Assembly (NCBI GenBank): GCA_030606585.1
Contig: JAUWGD010000001.1
Coordinates: 1-42,662 of the forward strand
Length of the DNA stretch: 42,662 nucleotides
Direction of reading: 5' to 3'
Source of the DNA: Dehalococcoidales bacterium
GTDB taxonomy: Bacteria > Chloroflexota > Dehalococcoidia > Dehalococcoidales > RBG-16-60-22
The notes below the pieces were generated by a model. It was not told where the DNA came from. It saw only the letters and a list, made by a program, of their open reading frames with translations, and ran no database searches. Shown in pieces: positions 1,520 through 27,504 of the stretch. The position numbers were made by a program, and so were the translations under genes. How positions within the stretch are numbered: the stretch's first letter is position 1; the number at the start of each line of letters is the position of its first letter.

Positions 1520-2467
1520 TTACCAGTCCGGCGGGCCTACCTGTTTCTGTTTGTCATAAATGTCATTATAGATTATAGTCCCGAAATTCTTGACGATTTC
1601 CCAGCGCTTTTCATTCCGCGGCTCATCAGGGATAGCGCGGATAATAGCATTATGACGCGCGATATAGCCGTCCTTGAACTCAGGATGGGTGTGTATGAAG
1701 AGGTCATTATTCCTGATGCCCCGTACCACCCGCTCACCGGTCTCTATCGGGTCCATGATTACATCTTTCATGTCCATGAACGGCCGCCGGGGTGGAGCGC
1801 CTTTAGGGGGCGGAGGCATTTTTGGCGGCCAGGTTTCTCCCTCGTTCCTGAGATGGGCAGGCCGGTTCTCAAAAGAAGATTTACCCAGATTGGTCATCGT
1901 CGGCCCGGGAATCAGCACTGAAGCCCCGATATTCTTATCCTGAAGTTCCGTGGCGAGACATTCCATCATAGCGCATACAGCATATTTCGTCGTGCAGTAG
2001 ATAATAAATTTGTCTGCGGCAAGAAGGCCGCACGTCGAGGACGTGGCTACGATGTGGCCGCCCTCCCCGTGTTTCAGGATACGCGGTACAATCGTCATGA
2101 TGCTGTTAATGCAGCCTCCCACGTTGACGCCCATGCTGTAGTCCCAATCTTTATACGTCAATTTATCAATCGGGCCGCCGCCGGAGCCTACGCCGGCATT
2201 ACTGACCAGCACGTGTATCTTCCCGAAGACTTTTTCCGCTTCATCGGCGGCCTTAACATAAGCCTCTCGGTCGGTAACGTTCAGTTTTATCGGGTGGACA
2301 GGCTGTTTTTTTTCTTTAAAGTAGGCCATCGCCTCATCCAGGGCGTCCTGGCGCGAATCGGCGATAACCACCTTCATGCCGTATTTGGTACATGCCTTGG
2401 CAATTCCGAGTCCGATGCCGCTGGCGCCACCGGTGATAAAGGCTGTTTTTCCTTCCACATGTTCCAT
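1520..2467 (-). CDS. SDR-family NAD(P)-dependent oxidoreductase (module A)
   Basis: TGGASGIGLG Rossmann motif, NAG, and a YxxxK-type active-site region (YCTTKYAV). I start at the internal Met (MEHVEGKTAFITGG) because AGGAG lies 7 nt upstream and the longer track ORF overlaps the upstream gene. Paralog of 4410..5384. Confidence 0.85.
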   Translation of the reverse strand: MEHVEGKTAFITGGASGIGLGIAKACTKYGMKVVIADSRQDALDEAMAYFKEKKQPVHPIKLNVTDREAYVKAADEAEKVFGKIHVLVSNAGVGSGGGPIDKLTYKDWDYSMGVNVGGCINSIMTIVPRILKHGEGGHIVATSSTCGLLAADKFIIYCTTKYAVCAMMECLATELQDKNIGASVLIPGPTMTNLGKSSFENRPAHLRNEGETWPPKMPPPPKGAPPRRPFMDMKDVIMDPIETGERVVRGIRNNDLFIHTHPEFKDGYIARHNAIIRAIPDEPRNEKRWEIVKNFGTIIYNDIYDKQKQVGPPDW

Positions 2468-2510: not shown

Positions 2511-4205
2511 CTAGTGGGAAATCCCGCAGGAACCGTCTTTGCAGACTTCTGCCACCGGCATCCGGAGCGGTTTTGCATCTTTCTTGATGCCGGCTTTAGG
2601 AATCCACGGGTCGATTACTGCCGTCTGGAAATAGGAAAAATCGGTAACAACCCACATCGGGTTCATTTCCCCGCCGGCGACGACGAAGTTCACCATCTCC
2701 GGGCGCTTGAAACGGAGATTCATCTCATTCACGAGCCACTCGCTGAGTTTCATGGGGTCATCGTAGCCTTCCTTCTTACAACTCTTGGCTACCAGCGGGT
2801 CGATGACGAACGTAAACGAGGCTCCGAAGGGACCGCTGATGCTTTTCACAACCTCCAGCATCCGCTGGATAGGGCCGGTGTTAAAGCCGAGGACAGTCCA
2901 ACCGCGGAAAAGACTGACCGTGCTCTCATCGCGTTTGAAACCCTTGCGCACGTGGAAGGGTTCCCAGACACTTAACTCCTCGTTTTCCGCGCAACACATG
3001 TTGTTGTAATTGATAGTGGTTCCGGTACTGGCCGTGAACGTGGCGCCGGGCCGGACATCCCCGAGGTTAATGCTCATCAGGGTCCAGGCACGGCCGATGA
3101 CGGAGTTGGCGTAATTGATCGGACTTAGGGCGCCGAGGCCGTAGTTCATGCCGATTTCGTCGCGGATGGGGCCGTTTACCACCATCATGCTCGCGAAAGA
3201 AGTCGTCGAACTGGGCATGGAAGGCCGTCCGGAAGCGCCTAATGCCAGGATAACCGGGAAATGCTCCGGTCTGGCGCCCGCCATGACGGCGTTCACCGCA
3301 ACCCTCTCCACTGTGTACTGGAGCCGTTCCTCGTGGGTAGTTACGGACATCATGCCGACGTATTCCTGGGGGCCGCGGTCGGTGCCGGTAAGCATCTCCG
3401 CCACGCGCTCTTCGGTCGGCAGGATGATGGGCAGGCCGTCCGTCCAGCCGCTTTCCAGGAAGAACCGGTGAAGGTCGGCCTCGGTGGCCGGTTCGAGCAG
3501 GCGCGGCCGCTCCGGTCTCTTCTCCGGTTTGTAATTCTTCTCGGTTTCCGTCAGCGGCTGGGTGAGGGCGAAGATAACCTCCTCCATGAGGGGTACGCCG
3601 GAAACAGGGTCGTTGCCCTCGATATAGCCATGCAACGTGTCCCGGGAAACCCAGCCGACAGGGTAAGGAGGAAAAGTCCAGCGGAGGTTCATGCCGTGAC
3701 TACGGCCGTCACGCTGCACGTAGTCCGTAAAACGGGCGGTGGCGATAGGGGCTGAAGGTACGCCATAGTCGTGTTCCATCGTCCGGGCAAACTCGGCGAT
3801 ACTCGCCGAACAGCCGTCTCAGCCGCCGACACCGAAGACAACGCCGTCACCATTTTCCTTGATTTCTTTCCAGAGTTCTGGCTCATCGGTGAACATGCTG
3901 GTCTTTTTATGGCGTAACTCGGTTTTGATAGCAGGTCGGTTTTGCGTGAACCAATCCTGAAGCTCCTCCATAAATTCCTTGCTGCCGGCAAATCCCGTAT
4001 TCACCAGGTAAACGGTCTTGCCTTCCAGGCTGTCAAGGCGCGGCGCCATTTTACGTTTCCCGAGGGCTTCAGCCGTGTCTCTCGGCTGGTTTTCGGGGTC
4101 GTGAATAGCGAACATTGGTGAATCAACGTTCAGCCGCCGTCCGAAGATACCGCTGGGCTGGCCTATGGGGTCCAGCACTGTGATTTTCGAATTATTTTTT
4201 GCCAT
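2511..4205 (-). CDS. predicted UxxC selenoprotein (about 564 aa): UGSC-like N-terminal domain fused through in-frame UGA (3821..3819) to a large conserved domain of unknown function
   Basis: Track ORFs 3819..4310(-) and 2511..3779(-) share a frame (42 nt from the UGA first base to the ATG first base). The 39 nt between them has no stop, and ATG 3779 has no RBS. The junction reads GVGG-U-DGCSASIAEFART-MEHDYGVP. A hairpin follows the UGA. The start is moved to ATG 4205 (AGGAG 7 nt upstream). The paralog 5429..7195 has TGA at the aligned position. Confidence 0.68.
3786..3815 (-). promoter_or_regulatory. SECIS-like hairpin downstream of UGA 3821..3819
   Basis: The mRNA reads UGA GAC GGCUGU-UCGGCGA-GUA-UCGCCGA-GUUUGCC. 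There is a perfect 7-bp GC-rich upper stem (3809..3803 / 3799..3793) with a small apical loop, extendable by two G-U pairs and GGC/GCC. It starts 3 nt after the UGA. Confidence 0.5.
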
Positions 4206-4409
4206 GTTTTTTCTCCTAACTGTTTTTACTATGGAAAAAAGATTGTTAAAGTTGATAGTTATCTTGCTCTTACGTGATATTCTATAGTACCTTATACAGT
4301 AAAAATCCACAACTGGAAGATATCGAGTCCATCTTTATGGAGTAATGTCAGAATTTGCATTAGATTGCCATTCATTTTACACTATTTATATAGTACGAAG
4401 GAGGGAATA

Positions 4410-5384
4410 ATGAAAGATTTCGCTGGTAAAATTTTATTTATCACCGGAGGGGCTTCCGGTGCCGGATTCGGTCAGGCAAAGGTGTTTTCAGAAGCAGGCT
4501 GCAAGGTTGTTATCGCGGATATTCGTCAGGACCACCTGGACGAGGCAATGGCGTATTTCCGGGATAAAAAGGCAGAAGTTCACGCGATACAACTGGATAT
4601 TACGGACCGCAAGGCATATGCGGCGGCTGCCGACGAGGTAGAGAAGGTATACGGGAGTCCGCCCCAGATGCTCTTTAATACTGCGGGCGTGAATGCCTTC
4701 GGTCCGGCTGAAGCCTCGACATTTGAAGATTATGACTGGGTTATGGGAGTTTGCCTTGGCGGCGTCGTCAACGGTATGGTGACATTCGTACCGCGCATGA
4801 TACAGGCCGATAAGGGCGGTTATATCGCCACGACTTCCTCGATGGGAGGTTTCATGGGAGGTTCCACGACCGCTCCCTACTCGGCTGCCAAAGCCGCGGT
4901 CAATAACCTCATGGAGAGTTACTTACAGGCGCTCAAGCCTTATGGTATCGGCGTATCCTGCCTGTGCCCGGGCGGTATCAAGTCAAATATCGCCGAAGCA
5001 TCATATACACGGCCAAAGCACCTGGAAAACACCGGGTATAACACCAATGAAAAAACAATCGAGTATATGCATTACCATTACTCTTTTGGGATAGACCCCG
5101 TCGAGCTGGCAAACATACTTAAGAAGGGGATTGAAAACGAGCAGTTCTTCATTATCCCGGTCCCTGACCCGGAAAAGATGCTGCAGGGTATTGTTGAGCG
5201 AATCGTTAATTATGCCACTCCCGAAGGGATGAAAAAACAGGAAGAGCTGATGAAGAAGCGCATGGAAGAAATGAGGAAACGCATGGGCGGTGATGATGGT
5301 CCCATGAAGGGCGCCGCCGAATCCGGATGGGGGAAAGCCAGGCAAGATTTAACCTGGATCAAAGAACGTAAGGGACCCTTTTAA
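4410..5384 (+). CDS. SDR-family NAD(P)-dependent oxidoreductase (module B)
   Basis: MKDFAGKILFITGGASGAGFG Rossmann motif and YSAAK active-site motif. GGAGG lies 6 nt upstream of ATG 4410. It shares DxRQDxLDEAMAYF(K/R)xKK with the module A SDR. Confidence 0.85.
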   Translation: MKDFAGKILFITGGASGAGFGQAKVFSEAGCKVVIADIRQDHLDEAMAYFRDKKAEVHAIQLDITDRKAYAAAADEVEKVYGSPPQMLFNTAGVNAFGPAEASTFEDYDWVMGVCLGGVVNGMVTFVPRMIQADKGGYIATTSSMGGFMGGSTTAPYSAAKAAVNNLMESYLQALKPYGIGVSCLCPGGIKSNIAEASYTRPKHLENTGYNTNEKTIEYMHYHYSFGIDPVELANILKKGIENEQFFIIPVPDPEKMLQGIVERIVNYATPEGMKKQEELMKKRMEEMRKRMGGDDGPMKGAAESGWGKARQDLTWIKERKGPF

Positions 5385-5428
5385 TCAAGGATGCAACTAA
5401 ACCCTGAACATTCGAATGGAGGAATATA

Positions 5429-7195
5429 ATGACAATTGAAGTACGTTTTTCAGTAATGAGTCCTGAAGCTGGAGTCCAGAAGAGTGCAGGTGGACCTCCG
5501 CCGGGTATGGGCGGGCCTCCACCGTCTTCAGCTTCTTTTGCCAAGCGGTTGGATACACTGGAGAACAAGACCGTGTACCTGGTGGATATCGGTTTCGGCG
5601 GAGGCTATGAATTCATGCTGCAATTGCAGAAATGGTTTGCCGATCACATGCCGTCCGTCACCACGATACCAAAACGGAAACCGGGTATGGTGTTCATGGA
5701 TGATAATAATGACCTCTGGGAGGAAATTAAAGTAAAAGGCCATGCCGTTGTCCTTGGCGTAGCCGGCTGACCGGGCTGTATTGCAGCGGTCGCTGCAGGT
5801 AGTACGAATCTTGAACAGAACTATGGTCTCCCGGTTGCTCCTGTCTCAGCATACACGATGGAAAGCGCTGCAAAGAGTAACCCGAGAGCCGCTTCTTTAC
5901 CTTTCATATATACGCCGTTTCCGGTGATAGGTTTGTCTCCTGAAGTCCTCGATAGTTATATTGTAGGCAATGACCCGGATACCGGTAAACCTGTCATCGA
6001 TGAGATATTTGACGTATTGACCAAACCGGTAAGCAAAAAGAAATCGCCGCCTGAGTCTCCTGTACCTGAAAAAGCCGCCCCTCCACAGGTACTCCTGGAA
6101 CCGGATACCGAAGATAATTTACAGCGTCTGTTTTATGAAAAAGGATGGACGGACGGACTGCCCATCATTCTACCCACCGAGGAACGGGTGCAGAAAATGC
6201 TCGCCGGCACCAGCGCTTCTCCGGACGAGATAGTCGCCGAATCATTCTCGTTTGCGACCAGAGAAGTTATTAAGTACACGGTTTCCAGCATCGCGGTTAT
6301 CGCGGTCATGGCCGGCGCCAGGCCGGAACATTTTCCGGTTATCCTGGCTGTTGCCTCTACCAGGCAATCGTCGCTTATGCCCTCAACAACAGCCTTCGGA
6401 ACAATGCTTCTGGTGAACGGGCCGATTCGTAATGAGATCGGTATGAACTGTGGTATCGGCGCGTTCAGTCCGGTGAATCTGGCGAATTCCGTTATCGGAA
6501 GAGCCTGGACATTGATGAGCATTTGCTGGGGGTATGCCAAGCCTAAAGAGACCCTGTGGAGTGCCCAGGGGAATAATTTTATTTACAATAATATGTGCGT
6601 CGGCGAGAACGAAGAGAGCAGCGTCTGGGAGCCTTTCCATGTGGGAAAAGGTTTCAAGTCTGACGAGAGTGTCGTCAGTATCTTCCGGGGATGGGGTTTT
6701 TTCAACAGTCCCGGAACCGCTGCCCACCGGTCGGTAATTGAGGAATTAAATATCCAGCTGGCGGCAATGCCCCCGATGAATTCCATGGCGACGATAATCA
6801 TGGACCCGCTGGTGGCCAGGAATCTAAAGGATAATGAAGGGTTTACAACCAAGCAGGACTTCTGCCGCGCGTTATCCGAGAACATCAAGATGCCGGCGGG
6901 ACAGTACTGGAAAACCGATCATATCGACATGCTGGTGGCATCCCAGGCATACAAGGGAGTGGAGCCTTATGCTTCCTGGAAAAAGCTCCCGGATGATGCG
7001 CTGATAGCTCCCTATCATAACCCGGACAATATCAATATCGTCGTCGTGGGCGGGGAGACAAGTCCCTTATGGAAAACTACGGACTACGGCTGCTCAGGCA
7101 GTGCATCTATCGACAAGTGGAGGGCGAATAAATCCGATGATGAATGCGCTGACGGAACGTGCGGGCTTCCGGATGAACCGGCTGATTATGATTAG
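5429..7195 (+). CDS. predicted UxxC selenoprotein (about 588 aa), paralog of 2511..4205; in-frame UGA at 5768..5770
   Basis: Track ORFs 5429..5770 and 5858..7195 are in the same frame (5858-5768=90). The intervening 87 nt has no stop, and ATG 5858 has no RBS. The junction reads GVAG-U-PGCIAAVAAGSTNLEQNYGLPVAPVSAYT-MESA. GGAGG precedes ATG 5429. Confidence 0.72.
5782..5797 (+). promoter_or_regulatory. SECIS-like hairpin 11 nt downstream of UGA 5768..5770
   Basis: UGCAGC-GGUC-GCUGCA forms a perfect 6-bp stem with a GGUC apical loop. The 11-nt spacing and the G/U-containing loop recall the minimal E. coli fdhF SECIS. Confidence 0.55.
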
Positions 7196-8421: not shown

Positions 8422-9324
8422 CTAGCGGGACGAACTAACAAGTTCGGCAGCCTCTAAAATATCAGGCACGATATTTTCATTGCCTACCGCCATGATATGC
8501 ACGCCGTGACACAGCTTTTCTTCCCTGATGGTTTTGATGAATCTGGCGGCAATCTCAATGCCTTTCTGAAGTCCCTTCCCCTTTTCCACAGCCGCCAGCT
8601 CATCAATAAGAGATTGGGCAACAATTATACCGGGGACGTTATTATTCATGTACCTGGCCATGCCGGCAGATGAGAGGACAATGATACCGGCCAGGATTTT
8701 AACGTCGAATTGAGATGCATATTGCATAAACCGACGAAAGCTTGCCAGGTCGAATATGCCCTGGGTCTGAAAAAATTGTGCCCCGGCAGCGACCTTCTTA
8801 TCGAATTTTATGAGTTGCGGCTCGATGAAGTCTGCTTCTGGATGGACGGAGGTGCCGATGCAAAATTTCGGGGCAGCCCCTAATTCGTTACCTCCCATGT
8901 CGATTCCGGATTCCAGGGTTCTTATCATCTTTAATAATTGCACGGAATCCAGGTCAAAAACAGGCTTGGCATCTTTGTGGTCGCCTACATCAATCGAATC
9001 CCCCGTAAGAGAAAGTACATTCTTAATATCTCTGGAATAAGCCAGAAGAAGCTCGGACTGCAGCGCCAGACGGTTTCGGTCACGACAAGTCATTTGCAGG
9101 ATTGGCTCACCACCAAGTTCTCTCACCAGCAGGCAGCCCCCTATCGAAGGAAAACGCATCACAGAACTTTGATGGTCCGTGATGTTTATGGCGTCAACCT
9201 TATCCTTGAGTAGCTTGATATGGTGAACCACTTCCGAGACGTCCACACTCTTGGGAGGTCCTATCTCTGTCGTTATAATAAAGTCATTTGAGCTGAGTTT
9301 CTCTTCAAATAATGAATTAGCCAT
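8422..9324 (-). CDS. metF: methylenetetrahydrofolate reductase, acetogen/MetF type
   Basis: About 300 aa. The ...ITTEIGPPK...AINITD...MTCRDRNR...LSLTGD motif pattern is typical of MTHFR. It overlaps the upstream metV-like gene by 8 nt. Confidence 0.85.
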   Translation of the reverse strand: MANSLFEEKLSSNDFIITTEIGPPKSVDVSEVVHHIKLLKDKVDAINITDHQSSVMRFPSIGGCLLVRELGGEPILQMTCRDRNRLALQSELLLAYSRDIKNVLSLTGDSIDVGDHKDAKPVFDLDSVQLLKMIRTLESGIDMGGNELGAAPKFCIGTSVHPEADFIEPQLIKFDKKVAAGAQFFQTQGIFDLASFRRFMQYASQFDVKILAGIIVLSSAGMARYMNNNVPGIIVAQSLIDELAAVEKGKGLQKGIEIAARFIKTIREEKLCHGVHIMAVGNENIVPDILEAAELVSSSR

Positions 9325-10000
9325 TGCTTTCTCCCGTAACAGTCTCTGCTTTACTCATAATCCTTCTCGGCCTGGGAATCGCCCGGAAATTCCGGGGAGG
9401 GTAATACCGGCGCATCTTATCCAGCTGCTGTAGTCTTTCCAAACGCTGATAAATTAAAATCCAGGCGCAGTCCATATCTTTATTGGCCTCGCATTTTCCG
9501 TTCTTGACGCCGGCACAGGGGCCATTGAGTATGCCTTTGGTGCACCTTGTAATAGGACAGATGCCGCCGGTGTCTTCCAATCGGCACTCACCGCAGGCGG
9601 CGCAACGTTCATCCCAGACTCCTGACTCTTTGGTCATGCCCATGAAAGAGGTATTCACACCCGGCAACACCGGCATATCCGGGAGATATTCCGCTATAGC
9701 CTGCACCCCGATGCCGCAACCGAGAGACAGAATTACGTCCACGTCAGCCGTTTTTTCGCCAAGCGCCTCCAGGAATTCAGGGTCACACTGCCTTTTCACA
9801 GTATGTTCGGAAAAGGTATGAGCCCCTTCTCCGCTCCTCGCCTGTGCCAGCTGTAACGCATTATGGAGAAAGGAGACCTCACGCTCGCCGCCGGCATCGC
9901 AAACCGTCATGCAGGTGCCACAACCGAGTATTAATACCCGTTCATAAGGGACAATCATTCGTATGATATCTTCCAGAGGTTTTTGTTCCGCGACTATCAA
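9317..10000 (-). CDS. metV: MTHFR C-terminal-domain FeS/zinc protein (MetV-like)
   Basis: Cys-rich, with CGTC...CAACGEC...CPITRCTKGILNGPCAGVKNGKCE (the NGPC(G/A)G signature of the MTHFR_C family). It overlaps its neighbours at both ends. Confidence 0.75.
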   Translation of the reverse strand: MIVAEQKPLEDIIRMIVPYERVLILGCGTCMTVCDAGGEREVSFLHNALQLAQARSGEGAHTFSEHTVKRQCDPEFLEALGEKTADVDVILSLGCGIGVQAIAEYLPDMPVLPGVNTSFMGMTKESGVWDERCAACGECRLEDTGGICPITRCTKGILNGPCAGVKNGKCEANKDMDCAWILIYQRLERLQQLDKMRRYYPPRNFRAIPRPRRIMSKAETVTGESNG

Positions 10001-12105
10001 CTTTTCACCTCCCCCTTTATTACTGAGGCTAAACGGAGAGAACCTATCTGTTCGACGAACTTGTCCAGTTCCTCGACAGGGTCTTCCGTGGTGGTGCCGA
10101 GGGCGAAAACCTGGAGTCGTTCGGGCTCGAGACCGATTGACCCCAGTACCTTTCTAACCTTCGCCACGCGTTGTTGTACCCAGTAGGTGGTATTTTCCCG
10201 GGCACATTGTTCGCCGCAACCGGCGATGAAGACTCCTTCGGCACCTGTCTCAAAGGCGGATAGTATGTGAGATGCCTCTACCTTGGCTACGCAGAGAACC
10301 GGTACGATACTGACGCCCGCCCCGGCTCCCCTCCATAGATCGGCCAGAGTGCCGGTACCGAAGAGTCCGTACTGGCAGCAGAAACCAATGATAAGCGGCT
10401 TGTTTTTCAGTTCGGCAGCCGATTTTATAGCGTGACTAAGCTCATCATTCACCTGGCGTCGGTCGAACGGCTTTCTTAAGACTATCGCCTTGGCAGGGCA
10501 CTCGGCCACGCATATACCGCAAGCCTGGCACTGGTCAGCAGGTATGCAGATGGCACCGCTGGCGTCCAGATGAGGCACGTGATAAGGACATACTCTCAGG
10601 CAGGTAAGGCAGGTGGCACACTTATCTTGAAACAGGATTTCCACACCAACGCCGCACCGCAGACACCTTCGGGCTTCATTGATAGCCTGTTCCCAGCTAT
10701 ATACGAGTTCTATCGGCTCGAAGTCTCTTGCCCTGACTTCGCTTGCCAGACTCGGCGGCTCAGCTCGCTCTATCTTCTTTATCATCTCTATTGTTTCCGG
10801 CAAAAGGTCTCCGCTTAACTTTTCCTTAGCCTCTTTGACGGGCAGTGGGTACCGGTGCTGGAGGTAATCAACGATGCGGAGCGCCGCGAGTCTGCCGGCC
10901 GCTAACGCCTCGGTTACCGTAGCCGGTCCGGTAACGGCGTCACCCCCGGCAAAAACCCCGGCTCTGTTGGTGGTAAGTGTATTCGGGTCGACCTGAATCG
11001 TGCTACCCTTGCCAATGCGGACCCCAAAATCGTCGGGGGTCTGAGGCGCCTGTCCAATAGCTGCGATGAGGGTATCAATTTGCTCGCTGAATTTGCTGCC
11101 CTTGACCGGCACGGGCCTCTGCCGGCCACTCTCGTCAGGCTTACCGAGCTTCATTTTAATGCAGGTTACATTCAACCTCTTGTTTTCTCTCTTGACCTTG
11201 GTGGGTGTTACCAGGTACCTTATGTCTATTCCTTCTTCCAGTGCTTGCTCAATCTCTGCGGGGTCGGCAGGCATCTCCGCGCGGGTACGGCGGTAAAGGA
11301 TGCTTACCTTTTTTACGCCCAGACGGATTGCCGTACGCGCCGCATCAATGGCTACATTACCCCCTCCCACCACGGCCACCTTTCTTCCCAGCGATGGCTT
11401 CAATCCGAGGTTAACCTCGCGGAGAAAGGTGGCTCCGTCTATTACCCCGGGACTTTCCTCTCCCTCTATCCCCATTCTGAGGCTTTGATGGGCACCGATA
11501 GTAATAAAAATAGCCTTATAGCCCAGCTCAAACAGCAGGTCCAGGGATACTACCCGGGTATCCGTCCTGATTTCAACGCCCATGCGTGTTAATCTCTTGA
11601 CCTCAATATCCAAGACTTCGCGCGGGAGCCGGTACTGGGGAATGCCGACGCGGAGCATACCTCCCAGTTCCGAGTGAGCTTCGAGGACCGTTACAGGATA
11701 GCCGAATTTTTTCAGGTAGTAAGCACAGGCTAAGCCGGCCGGCCCAGAGCCTACGATGGCAACCTTCTCTGCATGCGTGGTTTCGGCTTCAGCCTGGACC
11801 ATCCTGTCGCCGCCGAATTCCACGGCGAACCTCTTCAGCGAACGGATGGCGATGGGTTTATCTACCTGGGAACGCCGGCAGGCATCTTCACAGGGATGAG
11901 TGCAAACGTAGGCGCAGATAGATGGGAACGGATTGCCCGTCCTGATGACCTGTAAAGCCTCCATAATCCTGCCCTGAGAAACCAGACCTACGTATTCTCT
12001 GATATCCATATGCAGGGGGCAGGCATCCTGGCAGGGAGGTACCAGGCTATGGTCCGGAACGTTCTCCGTGCGATTTACAGGGTAGCTCGTATTAGCAACA
12101 TTCAT
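9997..12105 (-). CDS. NfnB/GltD-like FAD/NAD(P) flavoprotein fused to a 2x[4Fe-4S] ferredoxin domain and an MvhD domain
   Basis: N-terminal Cys-rich GltD-type domain (PPCQDACP...CTHPCEDAC), a VAIVGSGPAGLACAYYL dinucleotide fold and a second GGGNVAIDAART fold. These are followed by CLRCG...CLTCLRVCP and CQACGICVAECP, then the MvhD-like segment IIGFCCQYG...VPVLCVAKV...VFIAGCGEQC. Confidence 0.8.
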   Translation of the reverse strand: MNVANTSYPVNRTENVPDHSLVPPCQDACPLHMDIREYVGLVSQGRIMEALQVIRTGNPFPSICAYVCTHPCEDACRRSQVDKPIAIRSLKRFAVEFGGDRMVQAEAETTHAEKVAIVGSGPAGLACAYYLKKFGYPVTVLEAHSELGGMLRVGIPQYRLPREVLDIEVKRLTRMGVEIRTDTRVVSLDLLFELGYKAIFITIGAHQSLRMGIEGEESPGVIDGATFLREVNLGLKPSLGRKVAVVGGGNVAIDAARTAIRLGVKKVSILYRRTRAEMPADPAEIEQALEEGIDIRYLVTPTKVKRENKRLNVTCIKMKLGKPDESGRQRPVPVKGSKFSEQIDTLIAAIGQAPQTPDDFGVRIGKGSTIQVDPNTLTTNRAGVFAGGDAVTGPATVTEALAAGRLAALRIVDYLQHRYPLPVKEAKEKLSGDLLPETIEMIKKIERAEPPSLASEVRARDFEPIELVYSWEQAINEARRCLRCGVGVEILFQDKCATCLTCLRVCPYHVPHLDASGAICIPADQCQACGICVAECPAKAIVLRKPFDRRQVNDELSHAIKSAAELKNKPLIIGFCCQYGLFGTGTLADLWRGAGAGVSIVPVLCVAKVEASHILSAFETGAEGVFIAGCGEQCARENTTYWVQQRVAKVRKVLGSIGLEPERLQVFALGTTTEDPVEELDKFVEQIGSLRLASVIKGEVKS

Positions 12106-16606: not shown

Positions 16607-16700
16607 TGATTTTAAGGTTAGAAATAGGTGTCATGGCGGAAGTTAAATTTACCTACATAGAGCTATACTGAGAGTAGAGATAAGAAAGGAGATAAGAACG

Positions 16701-16871
16701 ATGCAGTGGGAGTTTTTAGTAGCACTGGTAATTGCGATACCCATTATCCTCTTCCCGGTAGCATTTATCTGGTATATAAACATCGGTGGTATCGTTGCCG
16801 CCATCAAAGATGCTCGGACAGCAAGGGTTATCCGCGAGAAGAAGGTGGCGGGAGCGACCAAGATTAAGTAA
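16701..16871 (+). CDS. single-pass membrane microprotein, copy 1 of 3 (56 aa)
   Basis: Below the track size cut-off, so translated by hand: MQWEFLVALVIAIPIILFPVAFIWYINIGGIVAAIKDARTARVIREKKVAGATKIK. AAGGAG lies 8 nt upstream. Clear paralog of the next two ORFs. Confidence 0.6.
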   Translation: MQWEFLVALVIAIPIILFPVAFIWYINIGGIVAAIKDARTARVIREKKVAGATKIK

Positions 16872-16923
16872 CCATGACACGGCAAGGAAGCGATAAAAGT
16901 ATTTAAGAAGGAGTAAAGGAATA

Positions 16924-17139
16924 ATGGAATGGCAGATTATACTAGCTTTAGCAGTGGCAATACCCATCATCCTCTTACCGGTAGCATATGTCTGGTATAT
17001 AAACATCGGTGGTACCGTTGCCGCTATAAAGCGTGCCAGAGAGAAACGTGTTACCCGGAGAGAGGGCAGCCCGGAGCATGAAGTGGAGTACAACACAGCC
17101 CTTACCGAGGCAATCAAGCGATATCCCTGGGATGAATAA
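16924..17139 (+). CDS. single-pass membrane microprotein, copy 2 of 3 (71 aa)
   Basis: MEWQIILALAVAIPIILLPVAYVWYINIGGTVAAIKRAREKRV..., with GAAGGAG upstream. Confidence 0.65.
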   Translation: MEWQIILALAVAIPIILLPVAYVWYINIGGTVAAIKRAREKRVTRREGSPEHEVEYNTALTEAIKRYPWDE

Positions 17140-17196
17140 TAGCGGTTCGGTAAATAATATGTTTCGTTGGGAGAAATTTTAAGGAGGGCTAATAAA

Positions 17197-17367
17197 ATGG
17201 AATGGCAGATTATAGTGGCTCTGGTAGTAGCAATCCCCATCATTCTTTTCCCGGTGGCATTCGTCTGGTATCTGAATGCCGGTGGTATCTACACTGCCGT
17301 CAAGGAAGCTCGAGCGAGACGAGTCGCCCGGGAAAAAGATGCCAAAGAAAGGATAAAAGTGAAGTAA
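17197..17367 (+). CDS. single-pass membrane microprotein, copy 3 of 3 (56 aa)
   Basis: MEWQIIVALVVAIPIILFPVAFVWYLNAGGIYTAVKEARARRVAREKDAKERIKVK. The start is moved to the ATG preceded by AAGGAGGG at 8-nt spacing, since the track call starts at an upstream TTG. Confidence 0.65.
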   Translation: MEWQIIVALVVAIPIILFPVAFVWYLNAGGIYTAVKEARARRVAREKDAKERIKVK

Positions 17368-26118: not shown

Positions 26119-27504
26119 TCATAACCCGTACGGCGGTAGGTCAATTTCCCACCATGCTTCGGGGTCTTTCCCATAACCGGGGTCGGTATCCAGCTTTCTG
26201 AACATTCCATTGAATACCGATGTGGCAGATAATATTTGCCTCACTAAATTGTGTATATGTATAAACGATTTATCTAGCTTAGTGAAGGGGCAGGCAGCCA
26301 GGCAGATGCCGCAATCGTGTCCTCCTATCCTCAGCCAATGTGAGAAACAGTTAGGGGCTTTCTCGTAGTACGTCTTGACGCCGGGGTTATTCCAAGGCCC
26401 TTGTATCTCCCACGATGGTTCAGTTTCCATACTGAGGGCATTACTCGGACAGACCTCGGCGCATTTCTTGCAGGTACGGCAAAAGCGGAATATACCGGCA
26501 TCTATCGGCTTGGTGGGAGCCAGAGGTAAATCGGTAATCACCTTGTATACCCGCACCAATGGGCCCCAATACGGAGAAATCATCCTGTTCAAACGGCTTA
26601 ACTCGCCCAACCCGGCCAGCACGCCGAAACCAGGGCTATTACCCGAGGTACCCATGTTGCCATCAGCCAGGCACTGATAGCCAAGTCTGCTTATAAACTG
26701 CTGGAGGCGAAGCTGGACTGAGGTACCCTCGGAATAGGCCAGCGAAGAGGCAGCCGTGGCCAGAGCCGCCGGTGCTGTGGCCAGGGATAGTGGTGACATC
26801 CGGATGGTATAGACAATCATCCATTTCGCTTTATAGGGTATCACCTTCTTCTTATCCGTCTCATACGCCTTGTCCACATCCTCAAACTCCCACTTCCTGC
26901 CGTCCCAACCATCAAATTCGTAGATCAGTTTGCGGGTATTCTCATCGAGTTCTACCACGCCAACAGAATCGGCCCCATAAAGCTTAGCTGCTGCCCTGAC
27001 CATTCGTGTATTTTCCTCGGGTGTGCCCTCATAACGAGGGTAGTCAAGGTCGTCGGGTATGCCCGCCATGCTGAAGGGAACCTTAAGGCCGGGACCGAGG
27101 AAGGCATGCTCCATAGTTAAGAGTGATGTTAGCCATCCGCCGGCGACCAGTGCCTTTTCCCTCAGCGTATACCCCGACTCGTTTTCAAGTATAGATTTTG
27201 TAGCTGCCTCCCCAGCTTCCCCCCCCAACTTCATAGCATTATCGGGGCCGACGGCCTGGGCAAAACCATTGACAAACATGATATTACTGGAGTCAAAGCG
27301 CTTCATCTGGCTCCAGTCAATCTCCACGGTAGGTTTATCGACCTCCTTTATCCACCATGGCAGTTTCCGCTCCGCTACTGGTGATGCCTTTATCTCGTCA
27401 AGGTCACGGTATTGCGAAGAGCCTGAGCCACCAGCATCAGTGTTTCCCTCCAATCCCAATGTCTTCATAAAGCTTCTCTTACTCCAGGTAGTGTGATACT
27501 TCAC
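26119..27504 (-). CDS. rdhA: reductive dehalogenase catalytic subunit homolog
   Basis: Dehalococcoides-type N-terminus (SKRSFMKTLGL...LPWWIKEVDKPTVEIDW) and C-terminal CRTCKKCAEVCP and C...CGICLAACP FeS motifs. GTG start with AGGGGGG 7 nt upstream. Confidence 0.9.
   Translation of the reverse strand: MKYHTTWSKRSFMKTLGLEGNTDAGGSGSSQYRDLDEIKASPVAERKLPWWIKEVDKPTVEIDWSQMKRFDSSNIMFVNGFAQAVGPDNAMKLGGEAGEAATKSILENESGYTLREKALVAGGWLTSLLTMEHAFLGPGLKVPFSMAGIPDDLDYPRYEGTPEENTRMVRAAAKLYGADSVGVVELDENTRKLIYEFDGWDGRKWEFEDVDKAYETDKKKVIPYKAKWMIVYTIRMSPLSLATAPAALATAASSLAYSEGTSVQLRLQQFISRLGYQCLADGNMGTSGNSPGFGVLAGLGELSRLNRMISPYWGPLVRVYKVITDLPLAPTKPIDAGIFRFCRTCKKCAEVCPSNALSMETEPSWEIQGPWNNPGVKTYYEKAPNCFSHWLRIGGHDCGICLAACPFTKLDKSFIHIHNLVRQILSATSVFNGMFRKLDTDPGYGKDPEAWWEIDLPPYGL

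What the first reader, a model, noticed from the sequence alone, without database searches (positions are those of the whole stretch)
2511..4205. Second, independent in-frame UGA with hairpin at the same aligned position (module A selenoprotein)
On the minus strand, ORF 3819..4310 ends at TGA (3821..3819), and ORF 2511..3779 starts 42 nt later in the same frame. There is no intervening stop and no RBS. The junction reads GVGG-U-DGC. A hairpin (UCGGCGA-GUA-UCGCCGA) with flanking GGC/GCC and G-U extensions starts 3 nt after the UGA. Two diverged paralogs (roughly half of positions identical by eye) both keep TGA at the same column and both keep a downstream stem-loop. This argues strongly against a sequencing error or a pseudogene.
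Basis: partly seen in the sequence, partly recalled or inferred. Interest (0 to 1): 0.8.

Follow-up and report, generated by a model that had tools for sequence, protein, structure and literature searches.

The report
Split-annotated UGSC-type selenoprotein gene
The "stop" codon in the middle of this gene almost certainly encodes selenocysteine, so the two annotated ORFs form one 564-residue redox protein from a known but functionally uncharacterised selenoprotein family (UGSC) that gene callers routinely cut in two.

Summary
On the minus strand, one reading frame runs 4205..2511 and is interrupted only by TGA at 3821..3819 (GVGG-U-DGC). A 7-bp hairpin with a GUA loop follows. A 42-45% identical paralog (5429..7195, +) has TGA at the same column.

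The selenocysteine reading is strongly supported:
- 88 of 90 homologous gene copies in 78 loci from at least seven phyla have TGA at this exact codon.
- The Cys three residues later is invariant, although it lies after the "stop".
- The supposed restart Met is present in only 21 of 88 copies.
- A 60% identical full-length homolog has Cys in place of Sec (CDGC).
- The hairpin sits at a fixed distance, has an invariant GU in its loop, and shows compensatory base changes.
- The two copies with Leu instead of Sec lack the hairpin.

It is not a new kind of thing. The N-terminal domain belongs to Pfam PF24696, the UGSC family, a selenoprotein family described in 2007-2008 with a UxxC motif and a strong preference for Sec. 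Relatives that pass NCBI's UGSC model carry the same C-terminal domain.

Several points are less ordinary. The roughly 370-residue C-terminal domain has no Pfam family and no PDB fold match. A short-chain dehydrogenase is often the adjacent gene. All public annotations split the gene into "hypothetical proteins". Function is unknown. Sec machinery could not be checked.

The parts
2511..4205 (-). Module A: one 564-codon selenoprotein gene. Residues ~41-191 form a UGSC-like domain and the C-terminal ~370 residues form an unnamed domain. It ends in a CxxxxC tail (C555, C560).
   Evidence: Translation. Pfam PF24696 scores 69.8 bits against a gathering cut-off of 25. A full-length Cys homolog, P0091, is 60% identical over 99% of the query.
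3819..3821 (-). In-frame TGA read as selenocysteine (U129), the first residue of a U-D-G-C redox motif.
   Evidence: TGA sits at this column in 88/90 homologous copies. Stop-free relatives have Cys there. C132 is invariant in 88/88 copies.
3782..3815 (-). SECIS-like stem-loop. The 7-bp core UCGGCGA/UCGCCGA with loop GUA lies at 3809..3793. The flanking G-U and GGC/GCC extension reaches out to about 3815..3782.
   Evidence: Sequence and fold. In 48 distinct orthologous sequences 93.1% of cells are paired and 5 of 9 pairs show double changes; 0 of 500 shuffles reach this. The loop GU is invariant.
3780..3818 (-). The 13 codons (DGCSASIAEFART) between the TGA and the ATG that gene callers use as the start of the downstream ORF. 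They are translated as part of the protein.
   Evidence: pN is 0.03-0.07 here, against flanking pS of 0.6-0.8. The Met at +14 is present in only 21/88 copies, with Leu in 54.
4210..4218 (-). Ribosome-binding site (AGGAG) upstream of the true start codon at 4205.
   Evidence: Upstream sequence AGTAAAAACAGTTAGGAGAAAAAAC.
1520..2467 (-). Short-chain dehydrogenase/reductase gene immediately downstream of module A, a recurrent adjacent gene.
   Evidence: An SDR of this type is the next gene in 35 of 80 loci. adh_short matched 28 of 131 immediate neighbours and is by far the commonest neighbour family.
5429..7195 (+). Module B: a paralogous selenoprotein gene of 588 codons. TGA lies at 5768..5770 (GVAG-U-PGC). 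The hairpin UUGCAGC-GGUC-GCUGCAG lies at 5781..5798.
   Evidence: B-type hairpin covariation is 0.428 against 0.176 in shuffles; 0 of 500 shuffles reach it.
4410..5384 (+). Second SDR paralog, immediately upstream of module B.

Best explanation
Window 4205..2511 (minus strand) is a single gene for a 564-residue selenoprotein.

How the UGA is read (inferred from standard bacterial Sec decoding): the UGA at 3821..3819 is decoded as selenocysteine by SelB and Sec-tRNA(Sec). SelB is recruited by the stem-loop that lies inside the coding sequence just 3' of the UGA and carries a conserved GU in its apical loop.

What the sequence and the model show: Sec129 and Cys132 form a UxxC motif. In the AlphaFold model of the Cys homolog the motif sits between a beta-strand and the N-terminus of a helix in an alpha/beta domain that belongs to the UGSC family.

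Likely function (inferred, not shown): the protein is a selenol/thiol redox enzyme. The UxxC pair would cycle between selenol/thiol and selenenylsulfide. It may relay electrons to or from the large conserved C-terminal domain, whose activity is unknown. That domain has conserved D, T, R, N and E-x-E residues, a mostly conserved Cys404, and a C-terminal CxxxxC tail. In Dehalococcoidales the protein probably works with the adjacent NAD(P)-dependent short-chain dehydrogenase.

Module B (5429..7195) is a diverged paralog that works the same way.
For: Shown by the sequence and by tool results:
- The frame is continuous, and an RBS precedes only ATG 4205.
- TGA occupies the same column in 88/90 copies from Dehalococcoidales, Acidobacteriota, Desulfobacterota, Bacillota, Actinomycetota, Chloroflexia and Binatia, across identities of about 35-100%.
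- All 88 copies stay open in frame past the TGA, with a median of 450 codons downstream.
- Cys at +3 is invariant, and the residues from -4 to +21 are conserved. The Met used as the restart codon is present in only 21/88 copies.
- The 13 junction codons have pN of 0.03-0.07 while flanking pS is 0.6-0.8. Their own pS is usually depressed (0.0-0.3 in most pairs, up to 0.5-0.6 in a few), as expected for an overlapping RNA structure.
- Cys replaces Sec in P0091 (GVAGCDGC). Other stop-free relatives have CSTC, CPGC or CGSC there.
- The hairpin lies at a fixed distance from the UGA. It has compensatory changes (GC to AU, UA and CG), including one pair achieved through amino-acid changes (L007: A to P and A to G). 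The loop GU is invariant in 48/48 A-type and 34/34 B-type sequences.
- The two Leu-substituted copies lack the hairpin. In the Cys copy the loop GU is lost (AGU to AGC) and the stem is weakened.
- The N-terminal domain matches PF24696 (69.8 bits, cut-off 25) and, more weakly, NF041046 "UGSC family (seleno)protein".
- UGSC-containing proteins are an established UxxC selenoprotein family with 255 Sec forms against 21 Cys forms in the GOS data (PMC2398784).
- TGA still ends 5 of 35 long ORFs in the window, so the code is not globally reassigned.
- Some Dehalococcoidia genomes are reported to encode 46-49 selenoproteins (PMC13326102).
Against: - No Sec machinery (selA, selB, selC, selD) is in the window or in any fetched locus, so its presence in this genome is untested.
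- The hairpin of the single sequence is no more stable than shuffled controls.
- No Rfam family matches the hairpin.
- There is no protein-level or selenium-labelling evidence.
- The redox role, the relay to the C-terminal domain and the partnership with the SDR are inferences. The SDR neighbour is absent from more than half of the loci.
- The C-terminal domain has no Pfam match and no PDB fold match, so nothing constrains its chemistry.
Confidence: 0.9

Rival explanations
1. These are two separate genes. Translation terminates at TGA 3821..3819 to give a 128-residue UGSC-like fragment, and an independent 422-residue protein starts at ATG 3779. This is how public pipelines annotate the locus.
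For: Gene callers split the locus this way (128 aa with PF24696 plus 422 aa). All database entries for close relatives are 393-424-residue "hypothetical proteins".
Against: - There is no RBS before ATG 3779.
- The Met is replaced by Leu, Ile, Val or Phe in 67 of 88 copies.
- The 13 codons between the stop and the ATG are among the best conserved of the protein, and the Cys at +3 is invariant.
- Stop-free homologs span the junction colinearly.
- A 128-residue product would end one residue before its own redox motif.
Confidence: 0.04
2. The gene is a pseudogene, or the TGA is a sequencing or assembly error in an ordinary Cys-containing gene.
For: A single in-frame stop is what a nonsense mutation or a base-calling error would produce. 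TGC or TGT to TGA is a one-base change.
Against: The same TGA is present in 88/90 independent copies from many assemblies and phyla, and in both paralogs of this window. dN/dS is well below 1 on both sides of the stop.
Confidence: 0.01
3. The UGA is read through, but not as selenocysteine. It could be decoded as Trp, Gly or Cys by near-cognate or suppressor decoding, or by a reassigned genetic code. The hairpin would then only stimulate read-through.
For: UGA reassignment exists in some uncultivated bacteria (my own knowledge). TGA is the rarest stop among long ORFs in the window (5/35). Sec machinery was not observed.
Against: - TGA still terminates five long ORFs here, and only two in-frame TGAs in 42.7 kb are plausible, both at the same column of one family.
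- The position aligns with Cys in CxxC forms.
- The loci come from at least seven phyla that use the standard code.
- The domain family is a recognised Sec family.
Confidence: 0.04
4. The gene gives two products. Sec insertion is inefficient or depends on selenium supply, so the gene yields both the full-length selenoprotein and a truncated 128-residue N-terminal fragment that has a role of its own.
For: Bacterial Sec insertion competes with RF2 termination (established knowledge, not tested here). The N-terminal fragment is a nearly complete alpha/beta domain.
Against: The fragment would lack both redox residues and the following helix (model). Nothing in the comparative data requires a function for the truncated form.
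Confidence: 0.1

Closest known systems
UGSC family (seleno)protein (Pfam PF24696; NCBIfam NF041046; the "UGSC-containing protein" of Zhang & Gladyshev 2007/2008)
   Same: - The N-terminal domain matches PF24696 above the gathering cut-off.
- It has a UxxC motif at the same column as the CGSC of relatives that pass the NCBIfam model.
- It shows the same strong preference for Sec over Cys: 88/90 here, against 255 versus 21 in GOS.
- Function is unknown in both.
- Fusion to an unnamed conserved domain was already noted in 2008 ("UGSC/Unknown_1 fusion").
- P0258, which passes NF041046 (133.1 bits against a cut-off of 125), carries the same C-terminal domain.
   Different: - The motif is U-D-G-C (module A) or U-P-G-C (module B), not U-G-S-C.
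- The score against the NCBIfam equivalog is 44.6 bits, far below the cut-off of 125, so NCBI's pipeline does not name it.
- The protein has 564 residues and two domains, whereas the model describes about 147 residues.
- The lineage is Dehalococcoidales, next to SDR genes.
- The 2008 paper guessed a thioredoxin-like fold. The weak fold matches here are to flavodoxin-like or Rossmann-like alpha/beta domains, which is inconclusive.
Bacterial SECIS element, as in E. coli fdhF
   Same: It is a stem-loop inside the coding sequence directly 3' of the UGA. The apical loop starts 16-17 nt after the UGA and contains GU. The module B loop is GGUC, the same four bases as the fdhF apical loop (the fdhF sequence is from my own knowledge).
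   Different: The module A loop has only 3 nt (GUA), and the stem has no obvious bulged U. No Rfam covariance model matches. SelB binding was not tested.
UxxC/CxxU thiol-oxidoreductase-like selenoproteins (Trx-like, Prx-like, PrdB, GrdB)
   Same: Sec is paired with a Cys two residues away, at a strand-to-helix junction. The likely chemistry is a selenenylsulfide redox cycle.
   Different: There is no sequence match to Trx, Prx or GRDB Pfam families. The attached catalytic-size domain has no known relative.

Membership tests
Bacterial selenoprotein gene (UGA-Sec with SECIS) | An in-frame UGA conserved at one column among homologs, with the reading frame continuing | tested here: met
   88/90 copies have TGA at the column. 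All stay open downstream, with a median of 450 codons.
Bacterial selenoprotein gene (UGA-Sec with SECIS) | Homologs with Cys at the Sec position | tested here: met
   P0091 has GVAGCDGC. Other stop-free relatives have CSTC, CPGC or CGSC at the same column.
Bacterial selenoprotein gene (UGA-Sec with SECIS) | A stem-loop immediately 3' of the UGA with a conserved G (GU) in the apical loop, supported by covariation | tested here: met
   The loop GU is invariant. A-type hairpins are 93.1% paired and B-type 82.8%, and 0 of 500 shuffles reach the observed covariation. The single-sequence stability z-score is not significant.
Bacterial selenoprotein gene (UGA-Sec with SECIS) | selA, selB, selD and tRNA-Sec present in the same genome | not testable with these tools
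   None is in the 42.7 kb window or in the 78 loci, and the rest of the genome is not available. The literature reports Sec-rich Dehalococcoidia (PMC13326102).
Bacterial selenoprotein gene (UGA-Sec with SECIS) | Selenium physically present in the protein | not testable with these tools
   This needs 75Se labelling or mass spectrometry.
UGSC family (Pfam PF24696) | Domain match above Pfam's gathering score | tested here: met
   69.8 bits against a cut-off of 25, covering residues 41-191. The public gene call for the 128-residue fragment also carries PF24696.
UGSC family (seleno)protein, NCBIfam NF041046 (equivalog) | Score at or above the curated cut-off of 125 bits | tested here: not met
   44.6 bits. 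The relative P0258, which has the same two-domain architecture, does pass with 133.1 bits.
UGSC family (seleno)protein, NCBIfam NF041046 (equivalog) | A U/C-G-S-C motif | tested here: not met
   The motif is U-D-G-C in module A and U-P-G-C in module B. Only the UxxC spacing is kept.
Thioredoxin-fold oxidoreductases | A thioredoxin fold around the CxxC/UxxC motif | tested here: inconclusive
   In the AF2 model (pLDDT 85.8) the motif lies between strand 153-157 and helix 162-179 of P0091. Foldseek finds no PDB match with E below 1e-3. The weak hits are flavodoxin-like or periplasmic-binding-protein-like alpha/beta domains, not thioredoxins.

The most novel reading that the evidence does not exclude
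The most novel reading not excluded by the evidence is this. The two-domain proteins of modules A and B form a large, undescribed class of selenium-dependent enzymes: more than 5,700 database proteins and at least 569 stretches encoding a relative among the first 600 pattern matches in the GTDB species-representative genomes. Their roughly 370-residue C-terminal domain would have a new fold and carry out an unknown reaction. The fused UxxC selenol/thiol module would supply or remove electrons, and in Dehalococcoidales and some Acidobacteriota a dedicated NAD(P)-dependent SDR would be the partner. That would be a new selenoenzyme system, not just another thioredoxin-like selenoprotein.
Probability: 0.3. 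Interest if true: 0.65.

Novelty: new member of a known kind. Interest (0 to 1): 0.4.

Why it matters
Two practical points follow.

First, standard gene callers and NCBI annotation cut every close relative of this gene into a 113-128-residue fragment and a 393-445-residue "hypothetical protein". The family is therefore absent from functional catalogues in its true form, and selenoprotein counts for Dehalococcoidales, Acidobacteriota and others are too low.

Second, the family uses Sec almost exclusively (88/90). It is widespread and often present in several copies per genome. It joins a known selenoprotein module to a large, confidently modelled domain with no Pfam family and no PDB fold match. 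That makes it a good target for finding a new selenium-dependent activity in organohalide-respiring and soil bacteria.

The Sec-decoding mechanism itself is textbook.

Tried and rejected
- **Rfam.** I searched the whole window at gathering thresholds and 3700..5900 at E up to 10. No SECIS or other family matched at the hairpins.
- **Single-sequence folding.** Hairpin stability is not distinguishable from shuffles, so it cannot serve as evidence on its own.
- **PDB sequence search with the full protein.** It gave only chance-level lipase hits, at E of 0.08 or worse.
- **Foldseek against the PDB.** I searched with the full-length Cys homolog model and with the C-terminal domain model. Nothing scored below E = 1e-3. 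The repeated weak hits to Toblerone-fold cyclic amide hydrolases have rmsd of 12-15 Å and probability of about 0.1 or less, so I rejected them.
- **Pfam search of the C-terminal domain at E up to 5.** No hits.
- **Comparison with the 2008 "UGSC/Unknown_1 fusion".** Figure S1A is held only as an image, and the stored sequence supplement is truncated. Motif searches (WTDGLP, MAGARPE, GUDGC and others) found nothing, so identity with "Unknown_1" is undetermined.
- **Literature search for UDGC, UPGC and "UGSC family".** Nothing relevant.
- **Search for tRNA-Sec in the window and in all fetched loci.** None found.
- **Global UGA reassignment.** Rejected, because TGA ends 5 of 35 long ORFs and only two in-frame TGAs are plausible.
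- **Hdr-type partner.** An HdrA/FlpD/CCG neighbourhood surrounds the Cys homolog. I saw it at only that one locus, and it did not recur in the neighbour census.
Full report
**1. What is in the sequence**

On the minus strand, a single frame is open from ATG 4205 to TAG 2513..2511, 564 codons long. Its only interruption is TGA at 3821..3819.

The junction reads VFGVGG-*-DGCSASIAEFART-MEHDYG. The ATG that opens the downstream ORF lies 13 codons after the TGA. An AGGAG precedes ATG 4205, and nothing comparable precedes ATG 3779.

The 7-bp hairpin UCGGCGA-GUA-UCGCCGA starts 9 nt after the UGA. A weaker G-U and GGC/GCC extension brings the base of the structure to 3 nt after the UGA.

The paralog ("module B") lies at 5429..7195 on the plus strand. 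Its TGA is at 5768..5770 (GVAG-*-PGC), followed by the hairpin UUGCAGC-GGUC-GCUGCAG. Identity to module A is 42% by tblastn and 45% by MAFFT.

On the single sequences, neither hairpin is more stable than dinucleotide shuffles (z = -0.60 and +0.09).

A scan of all six frames looked for in-frame TGA codons flanked by at least 60 open codons on each side. It found only these two plausible cases. The other hits lie antisense to clear genes.

**2. Comparative test of the recoding**

The read-through protein matches Pfam PF24696, the UGSC family, at 69.8 bits against a gathering score of 25, over residues 41-191. It also matches NCBIfam NF041046, "UGSC family (seleno)protein", but more weakly: 44.6 bits against a cut-off of 125.

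A search of 5.8 billion proteins gave more than 5,755 hits. The closest 90 are 393-427-residue "hypothetical proteins", many named from Dehalococcoidales or Chloroflexi. They cover only the C-terminal 69-75% of the query, so they are the downstream half as cut by gene callers. Public gene calls for this very sequence give 128 aa (PF24696) plus 422 aa, and 113 aa plus 445 aa for module B.

One hit, P0091, comes from a Desulfobacteraceae MAG. It is full length (599 aa, 60% identity, 99% coverage) and reads GVAG-C-DGCSASLAEF, with Cys where the window has TGA.

A scan of one genome per GTDB species found at least 569 stretches encoding a relative, and I kept 78 loci. They come from Dehalococcoidales, Acidobacteriota, Desulfobacterota, Bacillota, Actinomycetota, Chloroflexia and Binatia. 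With the two window genes, these hold 90 gene copies.
- The codon aligned with residue 129 is TGA in 88 copies. The other two have Leu (GQLDTC and GQLDTN).
- All 88 TGA copies remain open in the same frame, with a median of 450 codons after the TGA.
- The Cys at +3 is invariant (88/88), and positions -4 to +21 are strongly conserved.
- The Met used as the "start" of the downstream ORF is present in only 21/88 copies. It is Leu in 54.

I computed Nei-Gojobori estimates between module A and 16 orthologs. The 13 junction codons have pN of 0.03-0.07 in the comparisons with Dehalococcoidales, Desulfobacteraceae, Bacillota and several other orthologs, where synonymous sites in the flanks are near saturation (pS 0.6-0.8). 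The synonymous rate within the junction is usually depressed (pS 0.0-0.3 in most pairs, up to 0.5-0.6 in a few). That is what an RNA structure overlapping the codons predicts.

Stop-free representatives at 30-45% identity have Cys at the same column in CxxC motifs (CSTC, CPGC, CGSC) or non-redox residues (M, T, S, G).

**3. The hairpin**

I stacked the 63 nt that begin at the UGA codon from all copies. Every TGA copy has a stem-loop at a fixed distance from the UGA.
- The U-D/E-x-C subfamily (module A type) has a 7-bp stem and a GUN loop that starts 16 nt after the UGA.
- The U-P/I/S-x-C subfamilies (module B type) have a 5-7-bp stem and a 4-nt RGUY loop.
- The U-H/W-G-C copies have a 5-nt loop (CGUGA), which also contains GU.

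In 48 distinct A-type sequences, 93.1% of cells pair and 5 of 9 pairs show changes on both sides (GC to AU, UA or CG). None of 500 shuffles reaches the observed values, and slid registers drop to 27-46% paired. In 34 B-type sequences, 82.8% of cells pair. The covariation score is 0.428 against 0.176 in shuffles (0/500), and 42 cells have double changes.

The loop GU is invariant in both sets. In the A type it forces the Ser codon to be AGU in 48/48 sequences, although Ser has six codons. In L007 the pairing is kept through two amino-acid changes: UCGCCGA/UCGGCGA, with Ala to Pro and Ala to Gly.

The controls agree. The two Leu copies have no hairpin at this place. In the Cys copy the Ser codon is AGC, so the loop GU is lost, and the top of the stem is disrupted.

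No Rfam model matches. This is unsurprising, because no curated Rfam model describes this hairpin.

**4. Alternatives**

- *Global reassignment of UGA* is unlikely. TGA ends 5 of 35 long ORFs in the window, and the loci come from many phyla that use the standard code.
- *A pseudogene or sequencing error* is excluded by the 88-fold recurrence.
- *Termination followed by restart* is contradicted by the missing RBS, the non-conserved Met, the invariant Cys after the stop, and the colinear stop-free homologs.
- *Presence of selA, selB, selC and selD in this genome* could not be tested. None lies in the window or in the fetched loci. The literature does report Dehalococcoidia genomes with 46-49 selenoproteins (PMC13326102) and Sec-containing formate dehydrogenases in deep-sea Dehalococcoidia (PMC5736913).

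**5. What the protein is**

"UGSC-containing protein" is an established selenoprotein family of unknown function. It was first listed in 2007 (PMC1976440). In the GOS metagenomes it was among the most abundant families, with a UxxC motif and 255 Sec forms against 21 Cys forms. That paper also noted a fusion to a conserved domain it called "Unknown_1" (PMC2398784). The family is still listed as uncharacterised in a 2026 review (PMC13188914).

The window proteins are divergent members. They pass Pfam's threshold but not NCBIfam's equivalog threshold, and their motif is UDGC or UPGC instead of UGSC. P0258 (549 aa, GDCGSC) has the same two-domain layout and does pass NF041046, with 133.1 bits against 125. 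The fused architecture therefore lies inside the recognised family. I could not verify that "Unknown_1" is this C-terminal domain.

AlphaFold models are confident. The full-length Cys homolog has pLDDT 85.8 and pTM 0.85. The window's own C-terminal 422 residues have pLDDT 91.2 and pTM 0.90. The redox motif lies between a beta-strand and the N-terminus of a helix in an alpha/beta domain.

Foldseek finds no PDB structure with E below 1e-3 for either model. The best E for the C-terminal part is 0.099. The C-terminal domain also has no Pfam match, even at E up to 5.

Among the 88 Sec forms, the conserved residues include the following:
- W254-T-D256 and P263-T264, then R267, which lie in the GWTDGLP / PTEERV motifs;
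- M308-A-G310;
- N344-G-P346;
- G371-R372;
- E407 and E409;
- Cys404, present in 75/88 copies;
- a C-terminal CxxxxC pair, present in about 60/88 copies.

**6. Context**

The window looks like Dehalococcoidales. The closest loci are 90% and 87% identical and come from Dehalococcoidales MAGs. A reductive dehalogenase homolog lies at 26119..27504.

Each module sits next to an SDR paralog, 1520..2467 (-) and 4410..5384 (+). The same pairing recurs in 35 of 80 loci, with the A type followed by an sdrA-like gene and the B type preceded by an sdrB-like gene. In a Pfam census of 131 immediate neighbours, adh_short was the only frequent family (28 members). The next families, FMN_red, MarR and MFS, have 4 each.

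The Cys homolog sits instead among HdrA-like, FlpD and CCG-domain genes. Many genomes carry several copies, and some have two or three in tandem (L043, L046).

**7. Mechanism and its status**

- *Shown:* one gene; a conserved UGA at a UxxC site; a conserved, covarying stem-loop with GU in its loop directly downstream; a Sec/Cys pair among homologs; membership of the UGSC domain family.
- *Inferred from established knowledge of bacterial Sec decoding:* SelB with Sec-tRNA(Sec) binds the hairpin and inserts Sec at the UGA.
- *Inferred from the motif and its position:* Sec129 and Cys132 cycle through a selenenylsulfide.
- *Speculative:* the UxxC module exchanges electrons with the C-terminal domain, with Cys404 or with the C-terminal Cys pair, and the neighbouring SDR supplies or consumes NAD(P)H-linked reducing equivalents.

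**8. Verdict**

The object is a divergent, fused member of an already known selenoprotein family, decoded in the standard way.

The residual interest has four sources. The gene is systematically mis-annotated. The family uses Sec almost exclusively. It is widespread. And its large C-terminal domain has no family or fold assignment, so a new selenium-dependent activity may be hidden here.

Interest is 0.4. Novelty is "new member of a known kind". It borders on a new variant, because the NCBIfam equivalog criteria are not met.

Noticed in passing
window 5429..7195 (+), TGA at 5768..5770: Module B is a second selenoprotein gene of the same family (GVAG-U-PGC, hairpin loop GGUC). Public gene calls split it into 113 aa plus 445 aa.
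   Followed up: yes
window 16681..17303: Three direct copies of a ~127-nt unit (100/78/68% identity, spacing 223 and 273 nt) lie in the gap between a response-regulator gene and an Fe-S protein gene. ORF 16716..17243 (-) looks like a spurious product of this repeat.
   Followed up: partly
window 26119..27504 (-): A reductive dehalogenase homolog (TIGR02486, 295.8 bits against a cut-off of 160), consistent with a Dehalococcoidales origin.
   Followed up: partly
window 8422..12105 (-): A cluster of three genes. A 702-residue protein (9997..12105) matches GltD-type NAD(P)-binding subunit models over most of its length and HdrA2/VhuD-type models at its C-terminus. Next to it are a Cys-rich 227-residue protein with no NCBIfam match (9317..10000) and a MetF-like methylene-THF reductase (8422..9324). 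This may be an electron-bifurcating MetF complex. It is not linked to the finding.
   Followed up: no
L060 6265 and L078 6265: Two homologs, from Chloroflexia and Acidobacteriota MAGs, have Leu (CTG/CTA) in place of Sec (GQLDTC, GQLDTN), and neither has the downstream hairpin. They appear to be non-redox derivatives of the family.
   Followed up: partly
L043 4572/6232/8239 and L046 4497/6232/8185: Acidobacteriota loci carry three tandem paralogs, each with its own in-frame TGA and a different motif (U-SYC, U-PGC, U-HGC). This points to rapid paralog expansion.
   Followed up: partly
L079 8001..9800 and flanks: The Cys-containing full-length homolog (CDGC) lies among HdrA-like, FlpD/MvhD, CCG-domain and HGD-D genes. 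Its former SECIS region keeps a weakened stem but has lost the loop GU (AGU to AGC), which looks like a recent Sec-to-Cys conversion.
   Followed up: partly
window, 35 long ORFs: Stop codon usage is TAA 19, TAG 11 and TGA 5. TGA is the rarest stop but is still used.
   Followed up: yes
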